DNA of 64,000 bases from Paraspadella gotoi (lineage: Eukaryota > Animalia > Chaetognatha), in assembly GCA_051294375.1 (NCBI GenBank), contig CM119268.1, positions 8,737,008 through 8,801,007 of the forward strand. Direction: 5' to 3'. The position numbers were made by a program, and so were the translations under genes. The notes beneath the pieces were generated by a model. The model was given only the letters and a program-made list of their open reading frames with translations. It was not told the DNA's origin and did no database searches. Each line of letters starts with the position of its first letter. Position 1 is the stretch's first letter. Of this stretch, positions 11,726 through 59,198 are shown piece by piece.

Positions 11726-12100
11726 GGCAATGTCGTTGCGAGGTTTGAGGTTCAAAGAAAAACTAAGTTTAAACCAAGATAAGATACAAATCTTTGGCAA
11801 GTTTTTTTTCGTTGACAAACGTTTCAGTTCAGTAAAGATTTTCTCTTTAGGGTTTCTTTTCTAATTTTTTTTTAACAATTAAAAAAATTATTGTTTTAAA
11901 CAGACTCAATAATTAAAGGAACAATGAGAGTGATCGAAAATGAAAGCGCTACATCTAAAGTTCTCAGTGGCTTATTAAAATCATGAAATCATTAAAATCA
12001 TGAATCATAAAAGTTATAGGCCAAATCTTTTATTTATCCTTGTATGGCTTATGCAACAGCGGGTTTGCCTGTGATGCCCATTGGGATGGGGCATCTCACT

Positions 12101-12178
12101 GTTGGCTTTGGGGCTTCCGACCCTCAGTGACGCCTCCAGTCATGGCGCGGTTACCCTAGGACGTCTCGCTTTGCCAAC
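12101..12178 (-). ncRNA. P5-type twister ribozyme, family B 3' LTR copy (predicted cleavage 12153/12152)
   Basis: P5 GTTGGC/GCCAAC, UAA at the cleavage site, P3 TGAC/GTCA, P4 GGG-TCGGAAGC-CCC. There is a one-base deletion in the GACC strand. Confidence 0.65.
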
Positions 12179-12579
12179 GAGAGGAAGTTAGGACTGTGGA
12201 TGGAACACTACGCTGGGATGGTGTGTTCCCCCTCTAGCCATGGATTGGCTGAACGGATGTGGACGTGAGGCGGTGTGAATATACCGCCACAGGATCCCGG
12301 GCCAAGACATCACTCAGGTTCCTCAAGCCTGAGAGGTGTCTGACAAGACTGTTACCATAGTGGGAGAGAGAGAGAGAGCGCGAGTTGTGGGGGCATAGCG
12401 TTTGTCGTAGCGTACTCCCAGGGGCATAGGCGTTTGTCGTAGCGTACGCCGAAGTCGGCAGGCATAGGCGTTTTGTGCGTAGCGTACCCTGAGAAGGGCG
12501 TGGTTCGAATAGTAGGGCCTCACCACTTATGGCAACAGCCGGGTTGCCTGTGATGACCCATTGGGTGGGGCATCTCACT

Positions 12580-12661
12580 GTTGGCTTTGGGGGCTTCGCG
12601 ACCCTCAGGACGCCTCCAGTCTACTGGCGCGGTTACCCTAGGACGGTCTCGCTTTGCCAAC
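12580..12661 (-). ncRNA. P5-type twister ribozyme, family B 5' LTR copy (predicted cleavage 12635/12634)
   Basis: GTTGGC-AAA-GCGA-GACC-G-TCCTAGGG-TAA-CCGC-GCC-P3-GGG-TCG(C)GAAGC-CCC-..-GCCAAC. There is a one-base insertion in L4. Confidence 0.65.
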
Positions 12662-12964
12662 GCAGAGGGAAGTCCGTTAGGACTGTGGATGGAACACTAC
12701 GCCTGGGATGGTGTGTTCCCCCTCTGAGCCAATGGATTTGGCTGACGGATGGTGGACGTGAGGCGGTGTGAATATACCGCCACACTTGTCCCTTTTCAAG
12801 AGCGAAGACTCAAAGGAGCTGTGCCTCCCAACTTAAAAAAAAAATCGATTTTGATGTTATGGTGAACTAAAAATATATATATATCATTTATATTTTATAT
12901 TATATTTTTATGATCATGCAAATTATAAAATTATGATCCTATTAAAAAGTGTTAACTTATAGAC

Positions 12965-13187
12965 TGTGGCGGTATATTCACACTGCCTCACATCCATCGA
13001 CGTTCAGCCAATCCGACTGGCTTAGTGAGGGAACCCACCATCCCAACCGTTGATTTCCATCCACTTCTCTCTGCTTTGGCTAAGCGAGACTGTCTTAGGG
13101 TAACCGCGCCAATGACAGGAGGCGTCACTGAGTGTCGAAGCCCCCAAAGCCAACAGTGAGATGCCCCATACCCCGGCTATTGCCATA
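12965..13187 (+). mobile_element. Solo LTR, family B (diverged)
   Basis: Termini TGTGGC...GCCATA; flanks AGAC/AGTC (3 of 4 TSD match); aligns with 12528-12784. Confidence 0.85.
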
Positions 13188-13622: not shown

Positions 13623-16600
13623 ATGTGGTCGCACCTTGTTTCCGTTGTCGTCGCAGCAGCATTGGTCAATGGACACGCGCCGACGTGGCCAAAATACTTT
13701 CGGTCTCCCGTCAAAGTTTACTACAAGTAACAACTAACATTAAATTTTCTTTTATTATTTATCGCACTTGAATTCTTTAAGAATTTGTCCTTGAGCTTGT
13801 ACTGTTCGCGAAATGTTACCATGAAGTTCTCAAAATTATCCAACAAAAGTTATTTTCTCTCAATGTCGTCTCGAATTACTTTGTCTTTTCACCTGCTAGG
13901 TTCTACGGCGAACCGATGGACTGGCAGTCGGCTCAGGAAAGATGCAAGAAAGATGGGTCTCACTTGGCCATTGTCGACGACGACGTCCCAAAGAAGCTCA
14001 ACCAGAAGCGTCACTACATCATGAGGAAGCTGGAGGAAGACGCATGGATAGGGCTACGAAATGGGAAGTGGGTCGACGGTGAGTTGGTACAGATGTATAA
14101 CTATAAGCCAAGAGAATCCCTTGCTTCTTTTGGACTCGGAAGCGTAGTTTGGGAGTCGGCGTTTTAAAATTTTTATTCGTATAAATATAATTATATATAT
14201 ATAATTAATCTATTCATTCAGATTTTCATTAGATTAGTGTATTTGTAATTTTTTTTATTGGCACATCGTGATCGTTTATAATCGTTTAATTGCCAGGAAA
14301 AAATATGAGGCATTCTAATTATATGCCGGGATCTTCGTCGGGCGAATGTGTCTTTGCTCAACACGGAAAAGGCGGCAGCAGAAGCGACGACGGAAAATGG
14401 CGAGGCGAAAATTGCGCTGCGAAAAAAGTATGAATCTTTTTTTCATACTTAATAAACTAATGGTATCAATTAATTGTAAAACAAAACGTCAAAGCCACAA
14501 ACAACTCTATCATCTATGAGCTAATATCTTGTAATAATTTTAGTGCTTCGTTTGCGAATCGGACAGCTTTTGCGTGGTTAAAAATAAGTGCAAGAACGGC
14601 GGTCAGTGTCAAGGTGTCGGGGACCGTCAGACTAAGTGCGTTTGTCCGGACGGATTTACGGGAGACGATTGCGGGAATGACAACCGTCCTTGCATTGCAA
14701 CTAAGCCTTGTTTGAATGGTGCACAATGTGTCCCTCAAGGCACGAGCTACCACTGCAAATGCAAAGCTGGATTTCAAGGGGTGAATTGCGAACATGATGC
14801 ACGTCCCTGCATTGCTTATAACCCTTGCTTGAATAAAGGACAATGTCTCCGTAATGGTGTTGGATTTACTTGCAAATGCATGGATGGTTTTAAAGGAAAT
14901 AAGTGTGAGAAGGATGTACGTCCTTGCATTGCCTTTAATCCTTGTAAAAATGGAGCGAATTGTGTCCCAAACCGATTAACATATACTTGTAAATGTCTTC
15001 CTGGATTCAAAGGAAAGGATTGTGAAAAGAAGTGTGTCAGCGTGAGTAAAGGTGTGCATAAAGAACAAAGTAGTTTATTTACTTTGTTATTTATTAATTT
15101 ATTAAATGAAAATATAAAATTACATATTTTGTCAACATTTCTCACTCTCATCGTCTTAATTTGCTTTATCAGGAGGTCTTCCCGAGAAGTTGGATTTGGT
15201 TTTTGTTGTAGATGGCAGTAGAAGTGTGAAACCCGGGCCGTTTAAAAAATGTCTTGAGTTCATTGACAAGATCGTGGAAAGAGTGGATGTTTCTCCAAGT
15301 AAAGCAAGAGTTGGTTTCATTGAGTTTTCTAATAAGGTAAGATAAAGCTTGGTTTTATACTCTTTATTTACCCTACCAACACACCACATAAATAAATTTC
15401 CTTTCCTCTGTTTTAATTTCTGTCTTGACCCTCTTCACCTCTTGACCCGTTTTATTTTTCCAATTCTTGTTTTAAAAAGAATTTTTTCCTCTCTCTCTCT
15501 CTCTCTCCCTCTCCCTCTCTTTCTCTGTTTACACTAATGTATCAACAATAGAACGCTTGTTGGGGTGGGATCGGGTTTCCAACAAGAATGTCTGCTTATA
15601 TTGTGAGTTAGAAAGAGCCCATGCCCATTGTCCACTAGAAAATTAGAATTGTTCAGTTGTTAAGTACCATTTATGAAAACTCAAAAATTGAATAATAATT
15701 TTTGTTCACTGAAATCAAAGTCACATTATAAAAGTAATTGATATTAATTAAGGTTAACGAAGTAGATGTAATCGACTTTAAAAAGTCAGAAGACCTTGGA
15801 AAGGCCGGTTTAAAAAGTGAAATATCTCATACGCATTATCACGATGGAGGAACGCTCATTAGTAAAGGTCTGAACCGCGCGATCAAAATGTTTCAAGAAG
15901 AAGGTAATGATTAAGAAAGGTGTTTTTTTCAAATGTATCTTTTCCTTTTAAAATTAATTATATTAGTTATTAAGCAGAATGTTGATATTCGAATTTGTTT
16001 AGGAAACAGTGAAAAACACGCTATTCAAAATAAAAGACTTACGAATGTATAAATGTAAATACAGCTAATAATAACTATTTAAACTTTTTTTCGTAACAGG
16101 CCGAAAAAACGATGCTTCTGTTGAGAAGTACATGGTGCTGTTATCCGACGGTGCCAGTTATGAATCAGATGTGAAAGCGATGTCGTTGGCGGTGACAACT
16201 CTGAAAAATCTACGCATCAAAACTTTTGTCGTCGCAGTTGGTGACGAAGCGAAAACCGAAAGAGCACGGTACTGTCTTTTGACGAATTTCAAGTCTTCTT
16301 GAATTTGCCTTAGAGTCATCGTATATGCGGTATGAGTACATAATATTAGTGAATAACATGTGTTATTATGAAAACGCATATTATTTTTATCCCACCCGGT
16401 CCTCATCAAACTCACAAACCGCAACCAACTCACAAACACTCGGCAAATAAATATATCCACAACCCAGCTAACACTATCTCAACCAACACAACCCCAACAA
16501 CGACAACATAGCTTAATAACTTACATACCAATTACCATCTATTGGTAACAAACTTAGACAATAGACATGCATTTAAAAACATTATTGCGTGGCGGTATAT

Positions 16601-18288
16601 TCAGTTTTTTTATTCACACCGCCTCACATCTACCATCGTTCACCATATTGGCTCAGAGGGGGAACTCGCCATCTCAAGCGTTGCGTTCCATCCACAGTCC
16701 CAACGAATTCCATCTGCATTGGTAAAGCGAGACCGTCCTTGGGTAACCGCGCCAGTGACAGAACGCGTCCAAAGGGTCCAAAGCCAACAGTGGGATGCCC
16801 CATCCCAATGTGCATCACAGAAGGGTCAGGACCAATAGTTGCCTAATTGTGGGGGCCCCACCACTATTTGTTAATAGAAAAGGGGTTTATAAGCTTTCTT
16901 GTAATTGCCAAACCCGACCCAACAACAACGCCACTTCTTACGTAAGAAAAACAAGCGTTTCCATAAAAAAAAACGAACAGAACAACATCGAAGAGATTCC
17001 GCATCATCACAAGAACCTGTAGTCCTTGTAATTTTTTCGAACAAAAACCCAAAAAAAAAACAAGCTTAAATTCGATTTGCATGTTCGTGAGAGCCTGGAA
17101 ATTCGTCGTCAAGGGATAGAAGCGGGAAAATTCTTCGACGACGATCTCTCTAAATACGTAAAAACACACGCATGGAAGCCCCTTCTACAAAAACTAAAAG
17201 ACTATGGTGGACTAAAATCCACCAACCGTTCATCAGCGGCCATTGGTGCCGAGGCAAGTCATTCGCCTCCCAACCCAAAGGTCCGGGGTTCTAGCCCGGT
17301 GGTCGTCTGGCAGTTAAGAGGGACGGGGCGCTTAACCCGCCTGTAACATGGTGTTACAGCCTGATCCGAAGCTCAGGGACTGCTTATATTGAACGGTTCT
17401 GTCATTAACATATATCAATAATCACTGTCTCTTCATTGGTGAGCCCGACTTCCGAACACAACAGCAACAACAACACTTTCAGGCGACATGCCTCAACCTG
17501 GCGATGCACTTTCCGCCCACAACACATCAGGCGACATGCCTCAACTTGGTGACGAACTTTCCACCAACAACAACAATTCACAGAAGAGACGCAACAGACT
17601 TCTCCCTACGGGAGGGGGGATGTATGGTGGACTAAAATCCACCAACCGTTCATCACGGCCATTGGTGCCGGAGGCAAGTCATTCGCCTCCCAACCCAAAG
17701 GTCCGGGGTTCTAGCCCGGTGGTCGTCTGGCAGTTAAGAAGGACGGGGCGCTTAACCCGCCTGTAACATGGTGTTACAGCCTGATCCGAAGCTCAGGGAC
17801 TGCTTATATTGAACGGTTCTGTCATTAACATATATCAATATTCAATAATCACTGTCTCTTCAAGACTATTGAAGATGGGTCGGGGTTCTTCTCTTTCTTT
17901 CTCTTGAACTTTTGTCCTCAACTTTGACCTCATGCCTCTTTTCCTCTTTTCTCTCTCTCTTTCAACATTTTTTTTTACATTTTGGGGTCTATTTTTCTCG
18001 CATTTACTTGTACCATGAACTATGTTAACAGAAATATATTGCTCAGTTAAAAATAATATGCGTTTTCCTCATAACACGACGTTAATCACTAATATTAAGT
18101 CTTCTTGAACAAAAAAGGTTTGTTTATATAATATTTATTTGATAAAATAATTGGAATTCGTTTCACCTTTCAGAACACAATTGAAGATGGTGGCAATGGG
18201 AAAATCAAGTCATGTTTTCGAGGTAGACAATTATGATACTTTAAACAATGAAGTCTTATCGAAGGTGATCGTTTCACAGTGTGATTAA
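13623..18288 (+). CDS. Secreted C-type lectin + 4x EGF + von Willebrand A domain protein (multi-exon)
   Basis: Signal peptide MWSHLVSVVVAAALVNG; C-type lectin motifs MDWQSAQERC and AWIGL; four six-Cys EGF repeats; vWA motif LDLVFVVDGSRSV (MIDAS DxSxS) and MVLLSDG. The last exon ends SQCD-stop at 18288. Confidence 0.85.
16500..17202 (+). mobile_element. Decayed Penelope-like element, C-terminal GIY-YIG endonuclease region, in the last intron of the lectin gene
   Basis: Frameshifted peptides LPSIGNKLRQ, KGVYKLSCNC...YVRKT, RESLEIRR and HAWKPLL, typical of Penelope/Poseidon endonuclease C-termini. Confidence 0.7.
16588..16845 (+). mobile_element. Solo LTR, family B, nested in the Penelope remnant
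   Basis: CGTGGCGG...GTTGCCTA flanked by a perfect 4-bp TSD ATTG (16584-16587 and 16846-16849). Twister P4/L4 is partly deleted. Confidence 0.85.
17236..17306 (+). other. tRNA-like (Gly-CCC-like) Pol III promoter module inside the family A LTR (second copy about 17656-17726); not a functional tRNA gene
   Basis: Acceptor stem GCGGCCA/TGGTCGT, A-box-like TGGTGCCGAGG, anticodon loop CTCCCAA and T arm CCGGG-GTTCTAG-CCCGG. The anticodon stem is unpaired. Confidence 0.75.
17309..17384 (+). ncRNA. P5-type twister ribozyme, family A 5' LTR (predicted cleavage 17333/17334)
   Basis: P5 GGCAGTT/GACTGCT; general-base strand GACG at 17322-17325; UAA; T2 GC/GC; P3 TGTAACA-TGG-TGTTACA; P4 CCTGA-TCCGAAGC-TCAGG. 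The L4 CG pairs with the CG of GACG (T1). Confidence 0.75.
17729..17804 (+). ncRNA. P5-type twister ribozyme, family A 3' LTR (predicted cleavage 17753/17754)
   Basis: Same as the 5' copy except for one G>A in the P2 strand. Confidence 0.7.
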
Positions 18289-19021: not shown

Positions 19022-21781
19022 ATGGGATCCCTCTTCCGCTCGGAGGAGATGGCCCTCTGCCAGATGTTTCTACAGTCTGAAGCAGCATATGCTTGCGTAT
19101 CCGAGCTTGGTGAGCTGGGCCTTGTCCAATTTAGAGATTTAAATCCCGACGTTAACGCCTTTCAGCGAAAATTTGTCAATGAAGTCCGGAGGTGTGATGA
19201 GATGGAAAGAAAATTACGTTTCATTGAAAAAGAAATACAAAAAGATGAAATTCCGATACTTGACACCAGAGAGAACCCCGATGCGCCTCTACCAAGAGAG
19301 ATGATCGATCTTGAAGCCACCTTTGAGAAGCTTGAAAGCGAGCTTAAAGAAGTCAACACCAATGCAGAAGCTCTAAAGAAAAACTATCTAGAACTTACCG
19401 AGCTTAAGCATGTTTTGCGTAAAACGCAATTATTCTTTGACGAGTCGGAGCGCAATGTTATTGACGTCGCTCAAACAGCTTTTGTGCATGATGGCAGCGA
19501 TGGCTCTGCTCCAGGAGGCGGTGGCGGATCCCCCTTGCGATTGGGTTTTGTTGCTGGTGTGATACTCCGAGAAAAACTGCCAGCGTTTGAGCTCATGCTA
19601 TGGCGGGCGTGCCGAGGAAACGTTTTTCTGAGAACCGCAGAAATTGATACCCCGCTGGAAGACCCTGTTACAGGAGATGAGGTTTACAAGTCCGTCTTTA
19701 TAGTTTTCTTTCAAGGCGACCAGCTGAAAACGCGTGTCAAGAAAATATGTGAAGGATTTCGAGCCACTCTATATCCCTGTCCAGAAACGCCGGCTGAACG
19801 GCGAGAAATAGCTGTCGGCGTGATGACGCGCCTCGAGGACCTCAATACAGTTTTGGCTCAAACGCAGGAACATCGTCATCGCGTTCTATTAGCGGCCGCC
19901 AAGAACATCAAGGTTTGGTTTATAAAAGTAAAGAAGATTAAGGCTATTTACCACACCCTAAATCTATTCAATCTCGACGTAACTAATAAATGCTTGATTG
20001 CTGAGTGCTGGGTTGCAGTCTCCGACCTTGAAAAGGTTCAAAGAGCTCTGTTACGTGGAACAGAGTCATCTGGGAGTTCTATCCCTTCAATTCTTAATCG
20101 GATGCCAACCAATCAAACGCCACCCACCTTCCACAGAACAAACAAATTTACAGCTGCTTTTCAGGAAATTGTTGATGCTTATGGCGTTGCCAACTATCGG
20201 GAAGTGAATCCTGCGCCCTTTAGTATCATCACCTTTCCTTTTCTATTTTCCGTTATGTTCGGAGATGCTGGCCATGGCTTTATTATGTTCCTCTTTGCGC
20301 TAATTATGGTACTGAGAGAACGGTATTTTCTCGCAAATAAAGATGACAACGAGATTTGGAATATTTTTTTCGGCGGACGTTATGTTATTCTTTTGATGGG
20401 TCTCTTTTCCATTTATTCTGGTCTACTTTATAATGATGTATTTTCTAAATCTGTCGACATATTCGGTTCATCATGGATACCTAGTGATGAATACAGCGAA
20501 AAAAGGCTGGCAAAAGAAAAAGAATCCATCATGCTTAATCCTAATGACTCTTATACCATGACTCCTTATCCTTTTGGACTCGACCCCGTCTGGCAAATGG
20601 CTGAAAATAAAATCCTTTATCACGATTCACTTAAGATGAAATTGTCTGTTATTTTTGGCGTCTCGCAGATGCTTTTTGGGACAACTCTTTCATTATTCAA
20701 TTACAGGTCACTTTTTTTGAGGTTAATGATGTTGTTGAGACAGGTTTCTAAAAAATATCATTATGATTAAATTTTTTTATAACAATTTTATTATTTTTTA
20801 TAATTGTAGTCTAATCGGGCATAATTTTACTTTCGCCGACCGGGTTTGAGGGGGTTTAGAGGTAGGGTTAAGAGGGTTTAGGGTTAGGGTAATTAAGTAA
20901 TAATTCTTGTAAAAATTTTTAAGTGATTTTTCAATTTTTTAAAAATTTTCAGATACTTCAAACAGCCTTTAAACATTGCGTTTCAATTCTTCCCGGAAGT
21001 AATTTTTATCAGCGTCACTTTTGGTTACTTGGTCATATTGATTTTCGCCAAATGGCTAAGCGCTTTTTTCTTTGAGTATTCAAACCTTGCGCCATCCTTG
21101 TTGATTGGTCTCATTAATATGTTTCTCTTTAAATATGGTGATGATATGCCTGATTCCGCAAAACCTTGGTTCCCTGGCCAAAAGGCAATTCAAATTACTT
21201 TTGTCCTCGTGGCACTGGCTTGTATTCCGACGATGCTCTTTATCAAGCCTTGCATGCTTTACAAAAGGCACCAAGCGAGGAGAACACATATGTCTGGGTC
21301 AACGAGCATCGACGAGAATGCGGAAGTGGTTCACCATGATGAGCTGCAGCCGCAGGATGAACCCGAGGAGGAGTTTGACATCAGTGAAATTGCAATCAGG
21401 CAGGCGATTCATACAATTGAGTATTGCCTTGGTACTATCTCTCATACTGCTTCATATTTGCGGTTGTGGGCCCTCTCTCTTGCCCACGCTCAACTGTCCG
21501 AGGTGCTGTGGAACATGGTCTTGCGAATCGGACTCTCCTGGCGGGGGTGGGTCGGAAGTGTAGTGCTTGCGGGGACCTTCGCTTTCTGGGCTGTGCTAAC
21601 TGTCGCCGTCCTTTTACTCATGGAGGGGCTATCGGCTTTCCTTCACGCCCTTCGTCTTCATTGGGTCGAATTTCAGTCCAAGTTTTATACAGGGGAAGGC
21701 TACAAATTCCAGCCATTTTCTTTTGCTATAATTATAGATGAGGTTAGATTTTCCATTGGCAGTGATTCGCAGGAGAAATAA
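19022..21781 (+). CDS. ATP6V0A1: V-type proton ATPase V0 subunit a (exons 19022-20706 and 20953-21781)
   Basis: MGSLFRSEEM, FRDLNPDVNAFQRKFVNEVRRC, FPFLFSVMFGDAGHG, SHTASYLRLWALSLAH and HALRLHWVEF. Single phase-2 GT-AG intron. Confidence 0.96.
20817..20890 (+). mobile_element. Partial MITE related to 48022-48151, with TTAGGG-like interior, in the V0a intron
   Basis: Shares AATTTTACTTTCGCCGAC(C/T)GGG and a GGGTTAAGAG/GGGTTAGGG interior with the 48022 element. Confidence 0.7.
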
Positions 21782-22280: not shown

Positions 22281-22507
22281 TGAAGAGACAGTAATTATTG
22301 TTATGTGTTAGTGACAAAACCGTTCAATATAAGCAGTCCCTGAGCTTCGGATTAGACTGTAACACCGTGTTACAGGCGGCTTAAGTGCCCCGTACCTCTT
22401 AACTGCTAGCGACCAACGGGCTAAAAACCCGAACTTTTGGGTTGGGAGACAAATGTCTTGCCTCCTGCACCAATGGCCGCTGATGAATGGTTGGTAGATC
22501 CACCATA
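22281..22507 (-). mobile_element. Solo LTR, family A (diverged; twister general-base G mutated to T)
   Basis: TATGG...CTCTTCA on the minus strand; flanks TATT/CATT (3 of 4 TSD match). Confidence 0.88.
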
Positions 22508-22960
22508 CATTCAAAATAAACTTTATCTGTACCCACAAGATCTTCACTTGCACCTGGTCTTTAACAAAATAGCAATTTTTTGGGGAAAATTGTTATTATT
22601 TTAAATCTTTTTTAAACAAACACAACAAAAGAGAAAGGATTTATACACAATCTTAATATTTTTTAATAAGTATTTTATAAGGGGTAAAATATTATTAGTA
22701 CCGCATTAACAGTTCAGTTTAAGCCTTTGAAAGTGATTTACATATATTGGCGCAGCCACTGGTTGATTATTTAACTTAGGAATGAGGATAAGATAACCTT
22801 TGCTATTGCTTGTGAAGTAAAGTGAATTCTAATTGACAATGCAAATTAGTGTTATAATTAAAATTATTAATTGCATATGTAATAATTTCCAAATATTCGG
22901 GAAAGGTTTGAGCAGTTATCGCGGTTTAGAAACGTTTGCCTCACTCAGTTAGGTCCGCAT

Positions 22961-23264
22961 NNNNNNNNNNCGGGCTAAAAACCCGAACTTTTGGGTTGGG
23001 AGACAAATGTCTTGCCTCCTGCACCAATGGCCGCTGATGAATGGTTGGTAGATCCACCATACATTCAAAATAAACTTTATCTGTACCCACAAGATCTTCA
23101 CTTGCACCTGGTCTTTAACAAAATAGCAATTTTTTGGGGAAAATTGTTATTATTTTAAATCTTTTTTAAACAAACACAACAAAAGAGAAAGGATTTATAC
23201 ACAATCTTAATATTTTTTAATAAGTATTTTATAAGGGGTAAAATATTATTAGTANNNNNNNNNN
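22961..23264. other. Scaffold gaps enclosing a 284-bp duplicate of 22417-22700 (probable assembly artefact)
   Basis: N runs at 22961-22970 and 23255-23264; the enclosed sequence is identical to the upstream segment. Confidence 0.85.
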
Positions 23265-25352: not shown

Positions 25353-25494
25353 CAGACCAAAATTCATGGTCTTGGAAAGTTCATTGAATTCAACGAGAAA
25401 TAACGAAAACGATAAGAGAAAAATGGTTTAAATATTGAACTCTTTTGGAAAATGGAAATAAAATTAAAACTCCAATTATAGTTTAGCTATGTTT

Positions 25495-25760
25495 TGAAAT
25501 TGGTACAACTAATAAAAATTATTCATTCATTTAATAAATAAGCTCTCTTGCCCCTGACTTTGGACAGGCTTCGATGGTTTAAGGCCTCCATCACTCTTAC
25601 AAGATAATGACATAGCAAATCCCTGCAAGCTTGCAATCAAGACTCTCTCACTCACGGAGTACCTGGCTTCCCTATCAACGAACTGGTATAATGTTTCAAA
25701 GAAAGTTTCGATTGTATGAAAAGACCACTTTCTTAGGTATTAGATCGGTGAATACTATAT
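25495..25760 (+). repeat. Unclassified interspersed repeat (inverted copy of 40980-41265; short piece at about 10715-10742)
   Basis: Shared blocks CCCTGACTTTGGACAGGCTT, GGCTTCCCTATCAA and TGTATGAAAAGACCAC. Confidence 0.8.
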
Positions 25761-26611
25761 TATATAAGACTTTTATTGAAGATTAATATGCAGCAATCGT
25801 GAAAAGGACAATTGATTATTTATAAGTGGATTGATTCGATACATCTCTCAATAGTTATAGATTACCGATTTTATCTGAAGAGCTCTTTAAACCTCGGGTA
25901 CGATTTTATACCCTGAAAACTTTTTAACCACTGTATAATTCGGGAAAAAAAAGAAAATCTCCGTGATCCTCCGTCGAAGGCCCGCCACCAAGAACGTCAA
26001 CAATCGCTAAACCGTCCCAATCCGGGAATTCTCCGGAATGTCCCGCCGTTTCGTCAAGCAACTCTTCCACTGTTCGCCGACCGGGGAATTTACAACCGCT
26101 TCTTACATTTTTTTTTCGGGGGAAGGCCGTCCGAAAGTGGGGCATTGGGGCGCCAGACATTTGCGAAACGGATGGAATGGGGAAAGCGACGGAAGGAAGA
26201 GAGTGGGAAGAGACGAGAACAAGGAAAGAAGAGAGATTTTGTGTACGTATTCGCTTTTCGGGACGATTGTCATGTCCATCGTTTGATTCCCCTAGTATTC
26301 TGTGACAGCTCGACGCCGAATAAAGGGAATAAAAAAAAGAGGTCCAGATGGTTTTCCCCTTTATTCGCCGGACTCGTGTTTTTTTCTTATTTTATTCTTC
26401 CGGAAGGACGGTTCCAGCTTCCACTCGCTGGGGTTCTTTTTTTTTTAATATTATTTAGTACCTTAGTTACTTAGTTAGTTAAAAAGCCTCGTTGAAAAAT
26501 GGTCGCACTTTTGCACCCGTTCCAAACTGAGTACTAGTGAGTAGTTTATGGAAACGTAAAATTTTGCTGATGGTATTTTTTCCGGGTCGGCTGGTCTGCA
26601 AGCATCTGCTT

Positions 26612-40801: not shown

Positions 40802-41268
40802 CTTGCAGAAACCTGCTATGTTATTATCTTGTAAGTGTGATGGAGGCCTTAAACCACCAAAGCCTGTCCAAAGTCAGGGACAAGATAGCTTATTTATTAA
40901 ATGAATGGATAATTTTTATATTGGTTGTACCAATTTCATAAAATTCAGCTCCTTGTATTTTGATGCTAGTGCGGAGTACAATATAGTATTCCCCGATCTA
41001 ATACTTAAGGGAGTGGTCTTTTCATACAATTGAAACATTCTTTGAAATATTTATACCACTTCATTGATAGGGAAGCCAGGTTCACTGGGAGTGAATAAAT
41101 AAGACTGTGAGAGAGTCTTGATTGAAAGCTTGCAGAAACCTGCTATGTTATTATCTTGTAAGTGTGATGGAGGCCTTAAACCACCAAAGCCTGTCCAAAG
41201 TCAGGGACAAGATAGCTTATTTATTAAATGAATGGATAATTTTTATATTGGTTGTACCAATTTCATAA
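40802..41268. repeat. 327-bp-period tandem duplication (about 1.4 units) of an interspersed repeat
   Basis: CTTGCAGAAACCTGC... starts at 40802 and again at 41129, identical for about 140 bp. Confidence 0.85.
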
Positions 41269-43061: not shown

Positions 43062-46000
43062 ATGGACGTGGCCGTCGCGGAATTCGTCGCGCACACCGGG
43101 TCTGACCCCGGTTTAGCTCGTGACATCCTGGAGAACGCTAAGTGGGACCTTCACGCCGCCTACAATATTTTCAACTCTCTACAACCGTTGGAACAATCGA
43201 GAAATGGATTCTTGGCCAAGATTCCAACGTCGACCGAGCGCGACGATGGCGACGACATCGACGAAGAATCTTATACGTTTCCCCTGAACTCCACCAAAGA
43301 CTCGGTGAAGGAAGACGAAGAGGAACGTGACCCCTCCGAGGATGAGGACGCACCTCCGTCTCCGCGGGAGGATCGTCGATGCATCGACTGCATCAAGTCG
43401 GACAACCTCGTCAACCTTAAAGCCAAGTCCGTTAAAGTAAGTCGAAGTTTACGAAGCTGAGTTCATTTTGCTAACTAGTTTTTAGTTACGCCGCGAGTAC
43501 TCGCGGGGCAACTCAATATAAGTCGGTGGGTCGGTATATTGGTCGATTGGTCGGTTTATCTCACTTACGTTAAAAATGTTCAGAATTCAGGTAATGCTTC
43601 AATGCTTCATCAATTTAGTTCACATTTGGTTGGAAGGAATGGTACCATATGTAGCGGTAGTATTTCATACCCCGTTACTCGTCCGAGAATCAGCAGCACC
43701 TATGGCGCCGCAGGTAGCACGAGCTCCTCCCAACCCAAAAGGACTCGGATTCGCGCCCTGCTGATTCACACAAGAAAGCGCGACAGTGCGTCTAACCCAG
43801 CTGTAGTGACGGACTACAGCCCGACCCTAAGTTCGAGACCTTGTGTACAATGGAAGGTGAACTGCTCGCGGCATCGTCGTGTTACCTCCATCGCCATAGG
43901 TGCTGCTAATTCTCGGACGAGTAACGGGGTATGAAATACTACCGCTACACATAAGACCTTTAACGTGCATATGTATCATACTTGTGCCGTGTTCACCTTA
44001 AAAAAAAACCATATGACCTAAAATTGAATGCAGCATATCTCATAAAATACTGAGGTACTTGTAGACTAGTATAGTATCCGTGAAAGATTGTTGTGCTTAT
44101 TTTTCATACTTGTGCAATGTGCAGTCATGTGACCGCGCAGAACTACGGTCACGTGATCACAAAGTAAATGTTTTAGTTGAAACTTTGCAGATAAGTCATC
44201 AACCATTAGAAGTTTGTTGCATGTCTTTTATGAAAAATTGCAATATTACTTGTTTTACTACATTAGACTTTAATATTAGAGAATTGACAAAGTTTTTGTT
44301 TGCAACGAATTTTATTTATAGTTGAACAGACATGTTTCGACTTGTTTTACAAGTCTTCATCAGCGTTTGATGAAGATGAAGACTTGTAAAACAAGTCGAA
44401 ACATGTCTATTCAACTATAAATAAAATTCGTTGCAAACAAAAACTTTGTCAATTCTCTAATTAATAGTAACAACTAAAAAGAAAGGATTACTTCAATATG
44501 ACTTTAATATTAAAATTTTAAAATAAATGTATTTTATTATTTTAAATAAAATAAGGTTTATATCCGTGCAATTGTATTTTTTTATTATATCATTGTAATT
44601 ATTAAAAAACTTAAATCCCATTTTTCTTAAATCTTTATATTTATATCCTTGATTTTGTAGTTTTTTACTTACAGCCCTGGCTGAAAAATCTGAAAGTCTG
44701 AACAAATTCTTGCATATCTAATTAACTGACTAGTGAAAACTACAAAAGCTGCTTTCCTCGGAATACAACTGTCCATATATGGATAATTAACAATATCAAA
44801 ATTAAAAGCATCTCTTTTATCATAAACGAAAAAAATTAAATTTTGGTTCTGATTTAATGTTTATATCTAAATAATTAACATTTTTATCTGGATCATTTGA
44901 TTTATTTAGGGTCAGAGCTGCTGGATATATACTAGAAAGATGTGTTTGAAGTTCCTGAATATCTGCTGAAAAAAGATCATCTATATATCTGTAACAATTT
45001 TTAAATTTTCTAGCTACTATTAGATTATATTTTGATAAATTTTCTATATAACATGATTCAAAATAAAATAATAATAATTTAGCTATATCTTGACCTGAGT
45101 CTAATCCAATTGGTATACCTAAAGTTTGCTTATAAATTAAAGACCCGAATTTGACAAAAACATTATCTAAAATAAAATTTAAAATAATATGAAGGTCTTT
45201 CTCGGTAAAAGAAATATAGTTCTTTTTTTTTATAGATGAAAAGTATGCTTAAAGTTTACATTAATATATTGTTTATTTTCTCTTGCAAAAATATTTTTGA
45301 ATAATATTTTTAATTTACTTTTTATTTCATTATGTGGGAGTGAGGGATATAATGTTGAAAAGTCATAGCTTTCTAAAAAATCAGTTTTTAGTTGTTTAAT
45401 ATTTACTTATCTTTCGTGGTATCATTTTGATCACAATTGATTTTCTTAGCTTTTATGAGTTTCTTATAAATTTTGACCATTCCATTGCATTCTGCATTGG
45501 TATGCCATTTTAAAGTTAGATTTGAAAAGGCTAATTCAAAATGCCTCGCCCTGGCCCTTGTATTTTAAATGAAGAGGTGAAATTCCTATTTAACTCTCTC
45601 CTCTCTCTCTCTCTCCTTCCCTTCTTCCGATCTTAAAACTTGTTTTACTAAATTTAGATCGCTCAAAAAAATTGGGTTAATTGATCGTCAATGGCTCTCT
45701 ACTTGGAAGGAATTTTGAGGAGTTCCTCCGAAGCTTGTAATCTATCTTACATCCGAGCTCAACTTTTTTTTACCGCTCAACTTTTAACGAGTTTAACCGA
45801 CTCGTTCGTTATCAATTTTTGCTAGCCTAAGAACTCGAAGGCTGAAATCTGATAACATCGGGCGTAAAGAATTATGTCGATACTTGTTAGTATCACCTCG
45901 TGTCATTCTGAAATTGGTTTTATCGCTGGATTTTACCAATTTTTTAATCTTCTCTCCAGTTCAGTTCCTCTAGGCTGCTCCTCTGCAGCTCTCCTCTTGT

Positions 46001-49000
46001 GTTAGGCGGAAAACCAGTTGAGCGTAGAGAGAATATCAAGGGGGGAAAAATTCGGAGAGAGAGAGAAAATACTGCTTTCCCCTCCCCCCTTTTTCCGCTT
46101 CCATTTTTCTCTCCCAGTTCGAGTCGACGCTCATTTGAAAACGCAAACACGCTTCTCGCTCTCACTCGTCCGGGACGAGTTTTTTCTCTCGCTTCGCTCC
46201 ATTCGTTCTTTTTTTTAAAAAAAAATTGACTCCTTTTTTTCCCCGTTCAGGACTGGATCACGTCTGACTGTCCTCACATCGAAGCTTTTCATCCCGGAAA
46301 CCTAATCACCCCGCCCTCATCCTACAACGGATCCTATTGTGACGAAGTTTTTCGTATTCACCGCCAACACCAGCAACAGCAACGTCGTTCTCCTTCCTCG
46401 GGGACCGCTCGACCCAGTAGGACCTCGTCCTCTCCGCGACCTATTTTCGATCCTCGTTACTTGCAACCAACCTTCGAAGGGGAGGAGGGAGAAGAGGAAG
46501 AGCGACGAGGGACGACAGAAACGTCGCCCGCGCCAACCTCGAAACCGCGCCAACGTCGAAACGGTTCCGAAGGCGAGGAGGGCTCGCGCCGTTTGGCCGT
46601 TCCGCCCGTGGAGGCTCGCCAGAAGGCCGCCTCTGGCCCCGGCAACATTAATAATCCCTTTGATCCTAACGTCAAAGGACAAGCGGCCGGGATTTCCGGT
46701 GCCGCGTCAGCGCAATCCTCCATCCGGAATAAATGCGGGTCCGCGCCGAGCGTCGTTGGTGAGTGGAGGATAGGGAAAAAGTGGGAGAGGGATGCGGCTC
46801 GGGTTGGCTCTTCGGAAAATTCTTCCATCATCGTGCTGATCTAGTAAAGTTCGTGTCCTGATATTTGCTCGTTAGGACACAATGAACACATTCGTTTTGG
46901 TCACCGTAACCTTTCCCTGAAATCTACGTACTTTTTGTCCATCGTCTCTTTTCTAAGATTGAAATAATAAATTTTACCGATATCGGACATGGTATTAATG
47001 GTATTTGAGTTCGAGAAAGTTCGTCTTAGAAGATTCCAGTTAATCTATCTGTTTAATGATATGGTGATTTATATTTATTTTTACATTTGCTTTGTATTTT
47101 TGCAACGAAAAAAAATCTTCAGAAACAATTTTAAAAAGATGCAAATCTTTAGTATATTTCAAGGAGAACTTTTTAAATGTCCTTTCCAGAACCGGCGATG
47201 ACCGACGCGACGGTATTAGGATCGTCTCGTCTCGACGACGCCGGATTCGAATCGCCGGCATCGGACAGCGACGCAGAGAGAGCGGCTCCGGTTGTGGAGC
47301 AGCTCAATGGCACCCTCACGAGGAAATTTGCCAGAGGTAGGGTTTTTCGACACGACGGGGGTGTTGGGATCGTTAGTGCCCTTTCTTTGAAGGTCCGATT
47401 TTTTTATTTAAAAGAAAACTACAATAATTGTGGCTTCATTCGCACCCAATCCAACCCCTTTACCGCACTGAAGCTTTGACCGATAAAGAGGCCAAGATCC
47501 TTGCCTTCTGTTTGGACCAATTTGATCGGTCGCGACGTAAGTCGTTCAATATGTCGCTAAACTGTTGTTTGGTAAATCCGCCAATCCTCTGATAATTATT
47601 CTCGCTTGGGTTAGTTAAGGAAATTTGGGTATAAAAATAAAATCAATGCATCTTGAGCTGGCAAAGGGGTAGACTTAGGTTTTCCAGTCACGAAAATGTT
47701 TGTTCCATTCTTTTTTCACGCGTTCACCTTTTTTTTTCCAGGCATCTCAGCCATAGCCGACAATCGTCCGTTGGTGTTTCAAGCTCGATTTCAGGTATAC
47801 TTTTTTTTTCGGGTAAACTTTTGTAAAATTGCGAGTCTTTGACCATTGACCAATCTTCATTAAATATATTTTATATTTTAACATATTACAACAATACCCA
47901 GGTTATGCGAGATATTCAAGAAGATGAAGCCAGCAACAGCCAATACTTTGTCGAAACTCCGCACTATTCTTTCATGCTCCCCGACTTGAGACGCTATGCT
48001 GTCGACTTTCAGGTAAAACTGGAAAACGCATTGGGTTAATTTTACTTTCGCCGACTGGGGTTATGGGGGGGGTTAAGAGTGTTTTAGGGGTGGTAAGAAG
48101 TTTTCTCAAAAACCCCGGTCGGCGAAAGTAAAATTTTACCAATGCGTTTTCGTTATGCAGGAATTTTTGCGGAAAGACCTAGTTGAGACATCTACACTCG
48201 TGTCCTTGGAGAACGCGGGTCGTCTAAATTGGTGGGTGGATAAGGGCGCAGGCCAAACACTACTTCCATTGGCTACATCTGGAGATGGGAATTGTCTCTT
48301 ACACGCAGCGTCATTGGGTGAGTTTGCAATTGCTCTTTTTCTACCCTTATCTGTTAGATAATAATTTCTCTTCCTGTATTTCTCAAGGAATGTGGGGTTT
48401 TCACGACCGTCTTCTTACCCTTCGGAAAGCGCTTCATCATACTTTAACGGCGTCGTCAGCAAAAGGAGCGCTTTGGCGTCGATGGCGATGGCATCAGACA
48501 CTGCAGAATAAGCAAGTCTCGCTGGTGTACAGCGATGCCATTTGGGAGGAGGAGTGGAACAGTCTGGTTAAACTTTCCTCCACCATTCCACGGTTTGTTT
48601 GTAGTTCTGAAAGTTTTGAAACCACAGCGTTATTGCAACGTACTAAAACCCTAATAAACGTAATAAACAGATCGAAACCCGAGTCTTCCGGCAGCTCGGC
48701 CAAACAGGGCACTTCTCCCAAGTTAGTGGGTGGTGGCGGTTCTACGGCGGCGTCTCTCCCGTCCTCCGAAAGTGCCTCCAAGGCGGCGACGTCGCCCAAC
48801 GACCGTAAACCTGAAGATGTTCGCGTGTCGGCTGATCCCGACGGGGGATCGTCGGCTTCGGTCAAGCCGAAGGAACCCGACCCGACGTTTTACGAATCGT
48901 TGGAAGAGTTTCACGTCTTCGTCCTCGCCCACGTCTTACGAAGACCCATCGTCGTCGTCGCCGACACCATGCTCAAGGTTGGGAAGATTTAGGACGGTTA

Positions 49001-57402: not shown

Positions 57403-59198
57403 ATGGCACTTGACTTTGCCGCAGGCTGTGCAGGAGGTGAGTTCTACTTCTAATGATAAACCTTCAGCATTAACATAATATTTATCATAGTTTTTTTCAT
57501 CACTTGAGCTCTTTCTCGTAGTTCTGACCAAGCTCAATAGTCAATAATCTAAATGTTTCTCCTTTTGTTGTCATCTAGGAGTCGCCGGTGTACTCGTGGG
57601 ACATCCTTTTGACACAGTCAAAGTACGCTTACAATGTCAAGATTCTCAAAATAAAATTTACCGCGGAACCTTCGATTGCTTACGAAAAATCGTTGTCAAA
57701 GAGTCCGTAAGTTTGACGTGCTAACTGTTTCAATTCGGTAAAAATTATCGTACTTAGACCGAATAACATTTTTACAAAGAAAGAAAGATGATTTTAATTT
57801 CTGTTGATATTTTTCTTTGCTCAGCCCCTTGGTTTGTACGCCGGCGTCACATCTCCCTTGTTCGGACTCGCCTTCATCAACGCCGTCGTTTTCGGCGTAC
57901 AGGGAAATGTCGGACGTCGCTTTTCCGAACCCAACTCTCTCAAGTCTCTCTTTATTTCCGGTGGGGTGGCGGGATTCGCGCAAACATTCATCTGCTCTCC
58001 CATGGAGCTGACAAAAACTATCGTGCAGGTACATGCTAGGATTCTTTTTTATATTTTTTCAAAAAATGTAAATCAAAATGTAAATCATATACTAGGTAAA
58101 AATAAATTTGAGTTGCAAGCACTATGTAATAGCCGTAGGCCGATAAATGAAACTTAACCCCTGAAAAGACAGTAATAATTGTGACAGAACCGTTCAATAT
58201 AAGAAGTCCCTGAACCCCGAACCCCGCACCAATGGCCGCTGATGAACGGTTGGTGGATTTTAGTCCACCATACCCCAATTATTTATTATTAGTTAACTAA
58301 TGTTTGTTAACATAAGAACGGAGACGATAAATTTTATTTAACTACATCGTCGAGAAAGGGGGGGCCTGGAGCTGCAGTTTCGGATCTAGCAGCAGCCCAG
58401 CAAGTTATCCTTAGCATTTCTAAATTGAATTTCTAAAATGAATTTTTTGAATTATTACTTGTATGACAATATATCATTTATATTGCGATTAATTAAGGGC
58501 ATTAATACTGCCATTATTGATTTAAGGAATCCAAAATTATAATGCCATGAACCTATAGTCACTTGCTTACTTCTTCAGGTGCAGCACGATCACCCCAACG
58601 CCCCACAGTACAAATCTCCCCTCGATTGCTTCATTAAACTTTTTAAGTCTTCTGGATTCCGCGGAGTTTTTCGCGGGTTCGGACTAACAACGCTGCGAGA
58701 AGTTCCTTCATTCGGAACCTATTTCGTCAGCTATGAGGTGCTCTGCCGTAACTCTCCAGACCCGGCCTCGATCAAGGTATCATAATTTAACAAAGTTCAT
58801 TATTGTTGCGAATAATGTTGCGTTTTTGTGGTGATCATAGCAGCCCAAGCTCAAGCTAAAGGAAAAATTGTTCTAAAATTTAATTCTGCTTCTTTCAGGG
58901 ACTCTCATATCTCCTCCTGGCGGGAGGTTTGGCCGGCTGTTGTTCTTGGGTGGTCACTTACCCAGTCGACGTGATAAAATCTCGCTTTCAGGCCGACGCG
59001 GCGTGTCCGAACCCGATGTACAAAAACGCGCGGGACTGCGTCATTCAGTCCTACCGCGCCGAGGGATGGCGCGTGTTCTTCACGGGCCTGGCGCCCACGT
59101 TAGTTCGGGCTTTCCCCACCAACGCCGCCACTCTCACAGTCGTCACCCTCATTCTCAAATATTGCAAGAACGATTCGGACGTGGATACGAACTGCTGA
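57403..59198 (+). CDS. SLC25A29: Mitochondrial carrier SLC25A29-like (basic amino acid/ornithine carrier; 5 exons)
   Basis: MALDFAAGCAGGVAGVLVGHPFDTVKVRLQ, SPMELTK, YPVDVIKSRFQ and RAFPTNAAT: three carrier repeats. Confidence 0.85.
58162..58272 (-). mobile_element. Internally deleted solo LTR, family A
   Basis: Termini TATGGTGGACTAAAATCCACC...TTTTCA with TSD CCCC at 58158-58161 and 58273-58276. Most of the tRNA and twister is deleted. Confidence 0.88.

What the first reader, a model, noticed from the sequence alone, without database searches (positions are those of the whole stretch)
17203..17862. Pol III-type LTR mini-retrotransposon with a permuted twister ribozyme in each LTR (candidate twister retrozyme)
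Seen: TSD AGAC, LTR, PBS, 187-bp non-coding interior, PPT, LTR, TSD AGAC. Each LTR has a 71-nt tRNA-like module followed 3 nt later by a P5-permuted twister fold: P5, GA general-base strand, UAA, P3, P4 and L4 UCCGAAGC. Relative to the common twister (L4 UCCCAAGC pairing with GAGG), the T1 pseudoknot has a compensatory swap (UCCGAAGC with GACG), and the inner P4 pair is A-U instead of G-C. The sense strand has no TTTT run in 660 bp. Established: tRNA-containing TRIMs with 4-bp TSDs (Helenus/TRIMp3) are known, and plant LTR retrozymes use hammerheads to make circRNA; I do not know of a described LTR element combining a Pol III promoter with a twister. Inference: Pol III read-through and cleavage at 17333/4 and 17753/4 release a 420-nt monomer with 5'-OH and 2',3'-cyclic phosphate ends, which could be circularised and copied by a Ty3/gypsy helper. 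Caveat: P2 is only about 3 bp, with a bulge.
Basis: partly seen in the sequence, partly recalled or inferred. Interest (0 to 1): 0.95.

Follow-up and report, generated by a model that had tools for sequence, protein, structure and literature searches.

The report
Twister ribozyme in animal mini-LTR retrotransposon
A tiny, gene-less, highly repeated jumping element of an animal carries in each of its two terminal repeats a tRNA-like piece and a twister-type RNA fold that likely cuts itself, possibly only when the two repeats pair, which would free a 420-base unit to be copied as a circle; cutting is untested.

Summary
The anatomy is confirmed: AGAC target duplication, two LTRs (233 and 240 bp, 95.9% identical), a tRNA-Trp-type PBS, a 187-bp interior and a PPT. 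Sequencing contigs end at the LTR edges and point to thousands of copies. Each LTR has a tRNA-like Pol III module followed by a P5-permuted twister layout. Rfam does not recognise it. However, two other repeat families in the window carry the same layout: both change pseudoknot T1 compensatorily, one also changes T2, and one is itself an LTR element with Pol III boxes. A model trained only on phage twisters ranks this motif first in the window (E about 0.09, weak). New here: in all three families P1 is a loopless palindrome of 6-8 nt, so it would form best between two copies. This suggests a twister that cuts when the two LTRs pair, releasing a 420-nt unit for a retrozyme-like circle cycle. 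Against: cleavage, Pol III transcription and circles are untested; a competing hairpin is more stable; this copy's 3' LTR has a P2 mismatch; the no-TTTT argument is weak. Ten literature searches found no twister in an LTR element. Verdict: new variant of LTR retrozyme/TRIMp3.

The parts
17199..17202 (+). left 4-bp target-site duplication AGAC
17203..17435 (+). 5' LTR, 233 bp, TA...CA ends
   Evidence: contig loose ends at 17203 and 17435
17236..17306 (+). tRNA-like module: 7-bp acceptor-like stem, degenerate A box 17244-17254, B box 17287-17296, 5-bp T-like arm; predicted Pol III promoter
   Evidence: not called by ARAGORN; promoter activity inferred
17309..17384 (+). P5-permuted twister fold: P5 17310-14/17379-83, P2 17318,20,21/17336-38, G17322, T1 strand 17324-26, P3 17341-59, P4 17360-64/17373-77, L4 17365-72; predicted cut 17333|17334
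   Evidence: top hit of the phage-trained model
17327..17332 (+). loopless palindrome at the P1 position; self-duplex -8.3 kcal/mol, no hairpin
17437..17449 (+). primer-binding site, tRNA-Trp type
   Evidence: interior start 13 of 14 identical to that of Helenus-2_SyJa; Trp assignment from recalled tRNA-Trp ends plus the paper's list of hymenopteran primers
17436..17622 (+). 187-bp non-coding interior with a 48-bp tandem duplication (17479-17572)
17610..17620 (+). polypurine tract (11 purines)
   Evidence: sequence
17623..17862 (+). 3' LTR, 240 bp
17729..17804 (+). second twister fold; A at 17740 breaks the middle P2 pair; predicted cut 17753|17754
   Evidence: third hit
17334..17753 (+). predicted 420-nt unit between the two cut sites
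   Evidence: inference; circular fold -128.1 kcal/mol, z -2.7 against 40 shuffles
17863..17866 (+). right target-site duplication AGAC
22281..22507 (-). diverged solo LTR of the same family (88.6%); flanks AATG/AATA; general-base G changed to T; palindrome broken
58162..58272 (-). internally deleted solo LTR of the same family, TSD GGGG; most of the ribozyme is missing
12043..12784 (-). family 2: separate LTR mini-element (LTRs 12528-12784 and 12043-12291, TSD CAAG, PBS, Pol III A/B boxes, no clear PPT) with the same twister layout and an 8-nt palindromic P1; no single copy is intact
41152..41214 (+). family 3 twister fold (also G at 40839 + and 25592 -) with compensatory T1 and T2 changes and a 6-nt palindromic P1

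Best explanation
This is a high-copy, non-coding miniature LTR retrotransposon whose LTRs each hold a tRNA-like module and a P5-permuted twister fold; the fold likely self-cleaves, probably best when the two LTR copies pair through their palindromic P1, and would release a 420-nt unit that is predicted to be circularised and copied by a Gypsy-type helper. Shown: LTR/PBS/PPT/4-bp TSD anatomy, high copy number, twister core residues with intact T1 and T2, compensatory pseudoknot changes across three repeat families, palindromic P1 in all three. [quoted passage not shown] Pair-dependence would spare host transcripts that contain solo LTRs.
For: Anatomy and ends. Three family-1 insertions in the window have flanks AGAC/AGAC, GGGG/GGGG and AATG/AATA. 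T1 pairs: CCG/CGG (this family), CGG/CCG (family 2), CCA/UGG (family 3), against canonical CCC/GGG; T2 GC/GC against AC/GU; P5 differs in sequence but pairs in all three. Descriptor 4 hits against a mean of 0.076 in 1884 shuffles. A model built only from 58 phage P5 twisters puts 5 predicted copies among its top 6 hits in 64 kb. P1 linker fully self-complementary in 3 of 3 families, with different central dinucleotides (CG, GC, UA) and duplex energies of -8.3, -9.1 and -11.0 kcal/mol; phage linkers are 14-22-nt stems in 57 of 58. Among the 40 listed variant sites (11 more not shown), those carried by a fifth or more of the depth in X3 fall outside the ribozyme or in the P3 loop. Literature: P1 and P2 imperfections are tolerated and pseudoknot integrity matters; Watson-Crick double changes in T1 restore activity; the retrozyme cycle without an R region is described; animal Helenus have 4-bp TSDs and Gypsy-type PBSs.
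Against: No cleavage, transcription start or circle was observed. Rfam gives no twister hit, and the phage-trained model gives only 13.7 bits, E about 0.09. In nested-fold calculations P2 has probability 0.0 and a hairpin pairing the T1 strand with P2a/T2a is 7.8 kcal/mol more stable (pseudoknots are not scored); in the full transcript the two palindromes pair with probability 0.0. The family-1/family-3 changes are also compatible with that alternative hairpin; only family 2's T1 change and the canonical comparison single out the pseudoknot, and no family-2 copy is intact. The C27-G47 swap was not seen with full helices among 110 viral pattern matches. This copy's 3' LTR has a P2 mismatch. P1 is reported to be dispensable, so a monomer may cleave and the dimer gate may be unnecessary. 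The A box departs from the Helenus consensus (TRGCY...YGG). No covariation within family 1 could be shown, and no helper element was found.
Confidence: 0.5

Rival explanations
1. The twister is active but serves as a 3'-end cutter in place of a Pol III terminator. Molecules cut only in the 3' LTR keep a ~98-nt terminal repeat (17236-17333) and replicate as ordinary linear LTR RNA, with no circle.
For: No T4 run lies inside the element and the first one downstream is at 17910. The competing hairpin could make cleavage partial. Cassandra, the validated Pol III TRIM, makes a linear RNA with a short terminal repeat.
Against: A shared P1 helix would activate both sites together (inference). The no-T4 signal is weak. 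Plant LTR elements with ribozymes in both LTRs accumulate circles.
Confidence: 0.25
2. The twister fold is a passenger taken from a donor retroelement tail (family 3 may be such a donor, possibly Penelope/Naiad-like). It is silent in the TRIM, which moves as an ordinary Helenus element.
For: Family 3 lacks evident LTR/PBS structure and shows a partial tandem copy, an arrangement described for Naiads. The misfold is more stable. The solo LTR at 22281 has lost the general base. Eight of nine frog non-LTR retrozyme dimers tested in one preprint did not cleave.
Against: Two different LTR families keep the fold with compensatory changes, and common family-1 variants avoid the core. The donor is unproven: the 28-aa upstream frame had no Pfam hit.
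Confidence: 0.15
3. The motif is not a twister. The conserved structure is a simple hairpin with a palindromic loop (for example an RNA-dimerisation signal for packaging) plus P3, P4 and P5 stems.
For: The minimum-energy fold has this hairpin. Rfam is negative. The family-1/family-3 changes keep this hairpin paired too.
Against: It does not explain the conserved GA, UAA, U...AAG core, family 2's T1 change, or the ranking by an independent twister model.
Confidence: 0.08

Closest known systems
Plant LTR retrozymes (Cervera, Urbina, de la Pena 2016, PMC4918200; review PMC7761336; passages read)
   Same: Non-coding LTR element, 4-bp TSD, PBS and PPT, a self-cleaving ribozyme motif in each LTR, unit-length RNA without an R region, Gypsy helper proposed.
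   Different: Animal host; twister instead of type III hammerhead; tRNA-like Pol III module in the LTR; Trp-type rather than Met PBS; 420-nt rather than ~600-1000-nt unit; circles not shown here. The review states that metazoan retrozymes lack LTRs, PBS and PPT.
Helenus / TRIMp3 (Kojima 2024, PMC10886601; parts 1-4 of 6 read, supplement searched by motif)
   Same: TRIM under 1 kb with a tRNA-like piece in each LTR, GGTTC in box B, PBS, PPT, 4-bp TSD, solo LTRs; a Trp-type PBS as in some wasp families.
   Different: No ribozyme is described there ('twister' 0 occurrences; 'ribozyme' once). Twelve motif searches of the consensus file showed no twister loop in an LTR context among the passages returned. 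TA...CA ends; degenerate A box.
Type-P5 twister ribozyme (Rfam RF02684; Roth et al. 2014 recalled, not read)
   Same: Strand order, GA general-base strand, U|AA site, T1 with A.A, T2, P4/L4 of 8 nt, 3-bp P2.
   Different: P1 is a loopless palindrome rather than a hairpin; P2 has a bulge; the conserved T1 pair is swapped; long P3 and a real P5 helix; below Rfam thresholds.
Twister T-variants of Perere-3 in Schistosoma (Liu et al. 2021, PMC8501958; passages read)
   Same: Twister with a degenerate P1 used by an animal retrotransposon.
   Different: Non-LTR autonomous element, P1-type topology, single ribozyme at the 5' end.
Dimeric type I hammerheads of Penelope-like elements and non-LTR retrozymes; Schistosoma SINE-like promoter-plus-hammerhead repeats (PMC7761336, PMC6765202; passages read)
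   Same: A weak helix rescued by pairing of two tandem ribozymes; promoter plus ribozyme in a short repeat.
   Different: Hammerhead rather than twister; no LTR/PBS/PPT.

Membership tests
TRIM / Helenus (TRIMp3) | two LTRs, under ~1 kb, non-coding interior | tested here: met
   660 bp, 187-bp interior
TRIM / Helenus (TRIMp3) | PBS and PPT at the interior ends | tested here: met
   13 of 14 identity to a Helenus interior start; 11-purine tract; host tRNA gene not available
TRIM / Helenus (TRIMp3) | 4-bp TSD (animal Helenus) | tested here: met
   AGAC, GGGG, and 3 of 4 for the third insertion
TRIM / Helenus (TRIMp3) | tRNA-derived piece with boxes A and B | tested here: inconclusive
   B box and acceptor/T-like stems present, A box degenerate, ARAGORN and Rfam negative
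TRIM / Helenus (TRIMp3) | transcription by Pol III | not testable with these tools
   only contigs available; starts cannot be seen
twister ribozyme, type P5 | match to Rfam RF02684 at gathering score | tested here: not met
   no hit at E<=10; the same library gave 21 Twister-P5 hits above gathering in 20 control loci
twister ribozyme, type P5 | catalytic G and A, U|AA, 8-nt L4 | tested here: met
   G17322, A17323, U17333|A17334-A17335, L4 17365-72
twister ribozyme, type P5 | pseudoknots T1 and T2 complementary, with covariation | tested here: met
   all pairs Watson-Crick in family 1; compensatory changes in families 2 and 3; few independent sequences, no R-scape-type test
twister ribozyme, type P5 | P2 and P4 helices | tested here: met
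   P4 5 bp; P2 3 bp with a bulge in the 5' LTR, 2 bp in the 3' LTR
twister ribozyme, type P5 | P1 hairpin | tested here: not met
   6-nt loopless palindrome with no hairpin fold; P1 reported dispensable
twister ribozyme, type P5 | site-specific self-cleavage | not testable with these tools
   needs a cleavage assay
LTR retrozyme | hammerhead (type III) in each LTR | tested here: not met
   no hammerhead Rfam hit; twister layout instead
LTR retrozyme | LTR/PBS/PPT/4-bp TSD with a ribozyme motif in both LTRs | tested here: met
LTR retrozyme | unit-length circular RNA in vivo | not testable with these tools
   a circle and the genomic LTR give the same joint in contigs

The most novel reading that the evidence does not exclude
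A class of animal LTR retrozymes, at least two families in this genome, driven by internal Pol III promoters and using an obligately dimeric twister. The palindromic P1 forms only between the two LTRs of one transcript, so complete elements cut out a 420-nt circle while thousands of solo LTRs inside host genes stay silent.
Probability: 0.3. Interest if true: 0.88.

Novelty: new variant of a known kind. Interest (0 to 1): 0.72.

Why it matters
LTR retrozymes are described from plants with hammerheads, and twisters in animal mobile DNA from non-LTR elements. An animal LTR element with a twister would extend the circle-based retrotransposition route to a new ribozyme class and kingdom, and would give a twister a testable biological job. 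It would also suggest how a Pol III-driven LTR element defines its RNA ends, which is open for Helenus. A twister that needs a partner copy would be a new ribozyme variant that Rfam misses, and would explain how a genome tolerates thousands of ribozyme-bearing LTRs in introns. All key steps can be tested with short in vitro transcripts.

Tried and rejected
No whole genome was held, so copies could not be aligned genome-wide. Rfam scans of the element: no twister. The viral scan for the swapped-T1 pattern gave 110 chance-level matches, none with the full helices among the 40 best printed. The metagenome scan for relatives gave 1 match, L111, which lacks the helices and has no Rfam hit. Run search: no RNA holder listed on record. 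X9, guessed as RNA, proved to contain spliced RNA (GT..AG joint 20703-20950), and its contigs cover all 29 bins of LTR and interior. That shows presence only. My RNA-to-DNA depth ratios for the LTR (about 0.01-0.03) resemble those of unrelated repeats (about 0.007-0.045), and contig depth cannot give level, strand, start or cut site, so I draw nothing from them. The lower CpG-variant share in X9 may be an abundance-filter artefact. Organisms B and C hold only the LTR 3' part and interior in 2 and 1 contigs, too little for covariation. The MAFFT alignment of families 1 and 3 was out of register after P3, so I did not run pair counts on it and read pairs from parsed elements instead. No-TTTT as evidence was rejected. 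A Naiad identity for family 3 was not established. An LTR start at TG (17621-type) was rejected: ends pile at 17203 and the TSDs fit a TA start. Roth et al. 2014 could not be opened. bioRxiv supplements were not seen, and Repbase/Dfam were not available; a prior annotation there cannot be excluded. The Helenus consensus file was searched with 12 motifs, not read whole, and line breaks could hide a motif.

Full report
Context. The window is animal DNA: it carries V-ATPase subunit a, TGF-beta, OTU and EGF-repeat genes. No whole genome is held. By my reading of the sequence, the element lies in sense orientation in the last intron (about 16270-18173) of a gene with EGF repeats. An RNA contig joins that gene's last exon at 18173 to sequence outside the laid stretch. 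The element sits between the arms of an inverted repeat (16338-16389 / 18048-18100).

Observation. Two LTRs, 17203-17435 and 17623-17862, are 95.9% identical and enclose 187 bp; AGAC flanks both ends. The interior opens with a PBS that is 13 of 14 identical to the start of Helenus-2_SyJa and closes with 11 purines. Two more family members lie in the window: a solo LTR (22281-22507, flanks AATG/AATA) and a deleted solo LTR (58162-58272, GGGG/GGGG). In DNA run X3, loose ends pile at 17203 (175 contigs) and 17435 (117). Summed depth over the LTR is 2-5 million and over the interior about 1 million, against 155-240 on single-copy exons. The tool warns that this is not a copy number, so I take it only as 'thousands to tens of thousands, with many solo LTRs'. 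Twelve runs hold part of the stretch, nine of them from one organism.

Pol III module. 17236-17306 has a 7-bp acceptor-like stem (the last pair is mismatched in this copy, while most depth in X3 and X9 carries the pairing base), a 5-bp arm around the B box, and a degenerate A box. ARAGORN and Rfam do not call it. It fits 'tRNA-like promoter' as in Helenus, but activity is inferred. The lack of TTTT carries little weight: 27% of dinucleotide and 51% of mononucleotide shuffles of the 420-nt unit also lack it.

Twister test. All core elements are present and both pseudoknots are Watson-Crick, yet Rfam finds nothing. To get a yardstick I collected permuted twisters from viral contigs. Of 96 pattern rows, 58 had full P2 and P4, and 20 loci checked gave 21 Twister-P5 and 4 twister-P1 matches. 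Of the 58, 43 have a 3-bp P2, so a short P2 is normal; 57 have a 14-22-nt P1 linker, so the 6-nt linker here is not. A covariance model built from these 58 alone ranked the 5' LTR motif first in the window (13.7 bits, E about 0.09), the 3' LTR third, and three copies of another repeat fourth to sixth; the second hit is unrelated. No score is significant by itself; the ranking is the evidence.

Independent covariation. Two other repeat families carry the same layout. Family 3 (G at 41166, 40839, 25592; two of these are identical over 140 bp) changes T1 to CCA/UGG and T2 to AC/GU, and keeps the bulged P2 with a U-A top pair. Family 2 is a separate LTR mini-element (12043-12784, minus strand, TSD CAAG, PBS, A and B boxes, no clear PPT; two solo LTRs) with T1 CGG/CCG and a 4-position P2. 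No family-2 copy is intact, so its fold is read by comparing four copies. The window's assembly shows indel differences from two DNA runs even in a coding gene, so some of these breaks may be assembly errors. A pair-based descriptor found 4 window hits against 144 in 1884 shuffles (max 2); it was written after seeing the data. Within family 1, common variants avoid the core (40 rows shown, 11 not), but the family is too uniform for covariation.

The palindrome. Unchecked AI notes on Naiad elements in other genomes led me to look at the P1 position. In 3 of 3 families the linker is self-complementary end to end with no loop, with different central dinucleotides, and forms a 6-bp duplex with a second copy but no hairpin. 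Three of 58 phage linkers also passed the palindrome test, all long hairpins. With this criterion the descriptor gives 4 hits against 1 in 1884 shuffles. In monomer folding a hairpin between the T1 strand and P2a/T2a wins by 7.8 kcal/mol (pseudoknots unscored) and leaves the palindrome core in its loop; one family-3 copy folds the same way. This suggests an off state that pairing would switch on, but it is also a rival reading of the covariation, and a nested model of the full transcript did not pair the two palindromes. Since P1 is reported dispensable, monomer cleavage is not excluded.

Mechanism. Most likely (0.5 for the whole chain): Pol III read-through, paired cleavage at 17333|4 and 17753|4, ligation to a 420-nt circle, Trp-primed reverse transcription by a Gypsy-type helper. 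My estimates by step: TRIM 0.97, real twister fold 0.9, active in the family 0.8, circle route 0.55, pair-dependence 0.45. This particular copy has a P2 mismatch in its 3' LTR (17740) and may be impaired, though P2 mismatches are often tolerated. Rivals: 3'-end cutter with linear replication (0.25), silent passenger (0.15), not a twister (0.08). RNA data do not decide: X9 is RNA and covers the element, but only as contigs.

Prior art. Ten full-text searches returned no paper describing a twister in an LTR element or a dimeric twister. I saw: PMC10886601 parts 1-4 of 6 plus two motif searches of its supplement; passages of PMC6765202, PMC7761336, PMC8501958, PMC5680766, PMC6154101, PMC9901934, PMC8557442, PMC4918200, PMC9695139 and bioRxiv 10.64898/2026.07.22.740005; passages and half of one section of PMC11662667; the rest as listings only. 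The 2026 preprint still places LTR retrozymes primarily in plants and has no mention of twister. Roth 2014 and Kosutic 2015 are known to me by recall or through citing papers. Subscription journals, Repbase and Dfam were not searchable. Earlier scan notes held no look-alike sequence and none combining these features.

Verdict. Real feature. It works most likely like an LTR retrozyme but is not a member by the hammerhead criterion; it is Helenus-like in anatomy; its ribozyme is twister-like but fails the Rfam and P1-hairpin tests. New variant of a known kind, interest 0.72.

Noticed in passing
window 12043-12784 (-), solo LTRs ~12965-13172 (+) and ~16590-16830 (+): Second LTR mini-element family with TG...TA ends, 4-bp TSD, PBS, Pol III boxes and the same palindromic-P1 twister layout; it lacks a clear PPT.
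   Followed up: partly
window 40977-41268 (+), 40802-40941 (+), 25492-25764 (-): Third repeat family with an intact twister layout, no evident LTR/PBS, and a partial tandem copy; possibly the tail of a Penelope/Naiad-like element and a possible donor of the ribozyme (unproven).
   Followed up: partly
window 16338-16389 and 18048-18100: Inverted repeat (89%) bracketing the element and a family-2 solo LTR; probably a DNA-transposon-like host element. DNA depth is raised at 17900-18187.
   Followed up: no
window 20703-20950: V-ATPase subunit a intron confirmed by an RNA joint; two DNA runs show indels against the window at 20711 and 20720, suggesting assembly errors.
   Followed up: partly
window 22417-22700 and 22971-23254: 284-bp exact duplication next to N gaps, including part of the solo LTR; likely an assembly artefact.
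   Followed up: no
window 44275-44461: 187-bp near-perfect palindrome (94%); a weaker one lies at 48022-48151.
   Followed up: no
L194, L192, L164, L200 and neighbours (viral contigs): Phage contigs with clusters of up to five or more type-P5 twisters a few hundred bases apart, many followed by ribosome-binding-like sequences.
   Followed up: no
window 17479-17572: 48-bp tandem duplication with hairpins in the interior; it is the part also held, with deletions, by organisms B and C.
   Followed up: no
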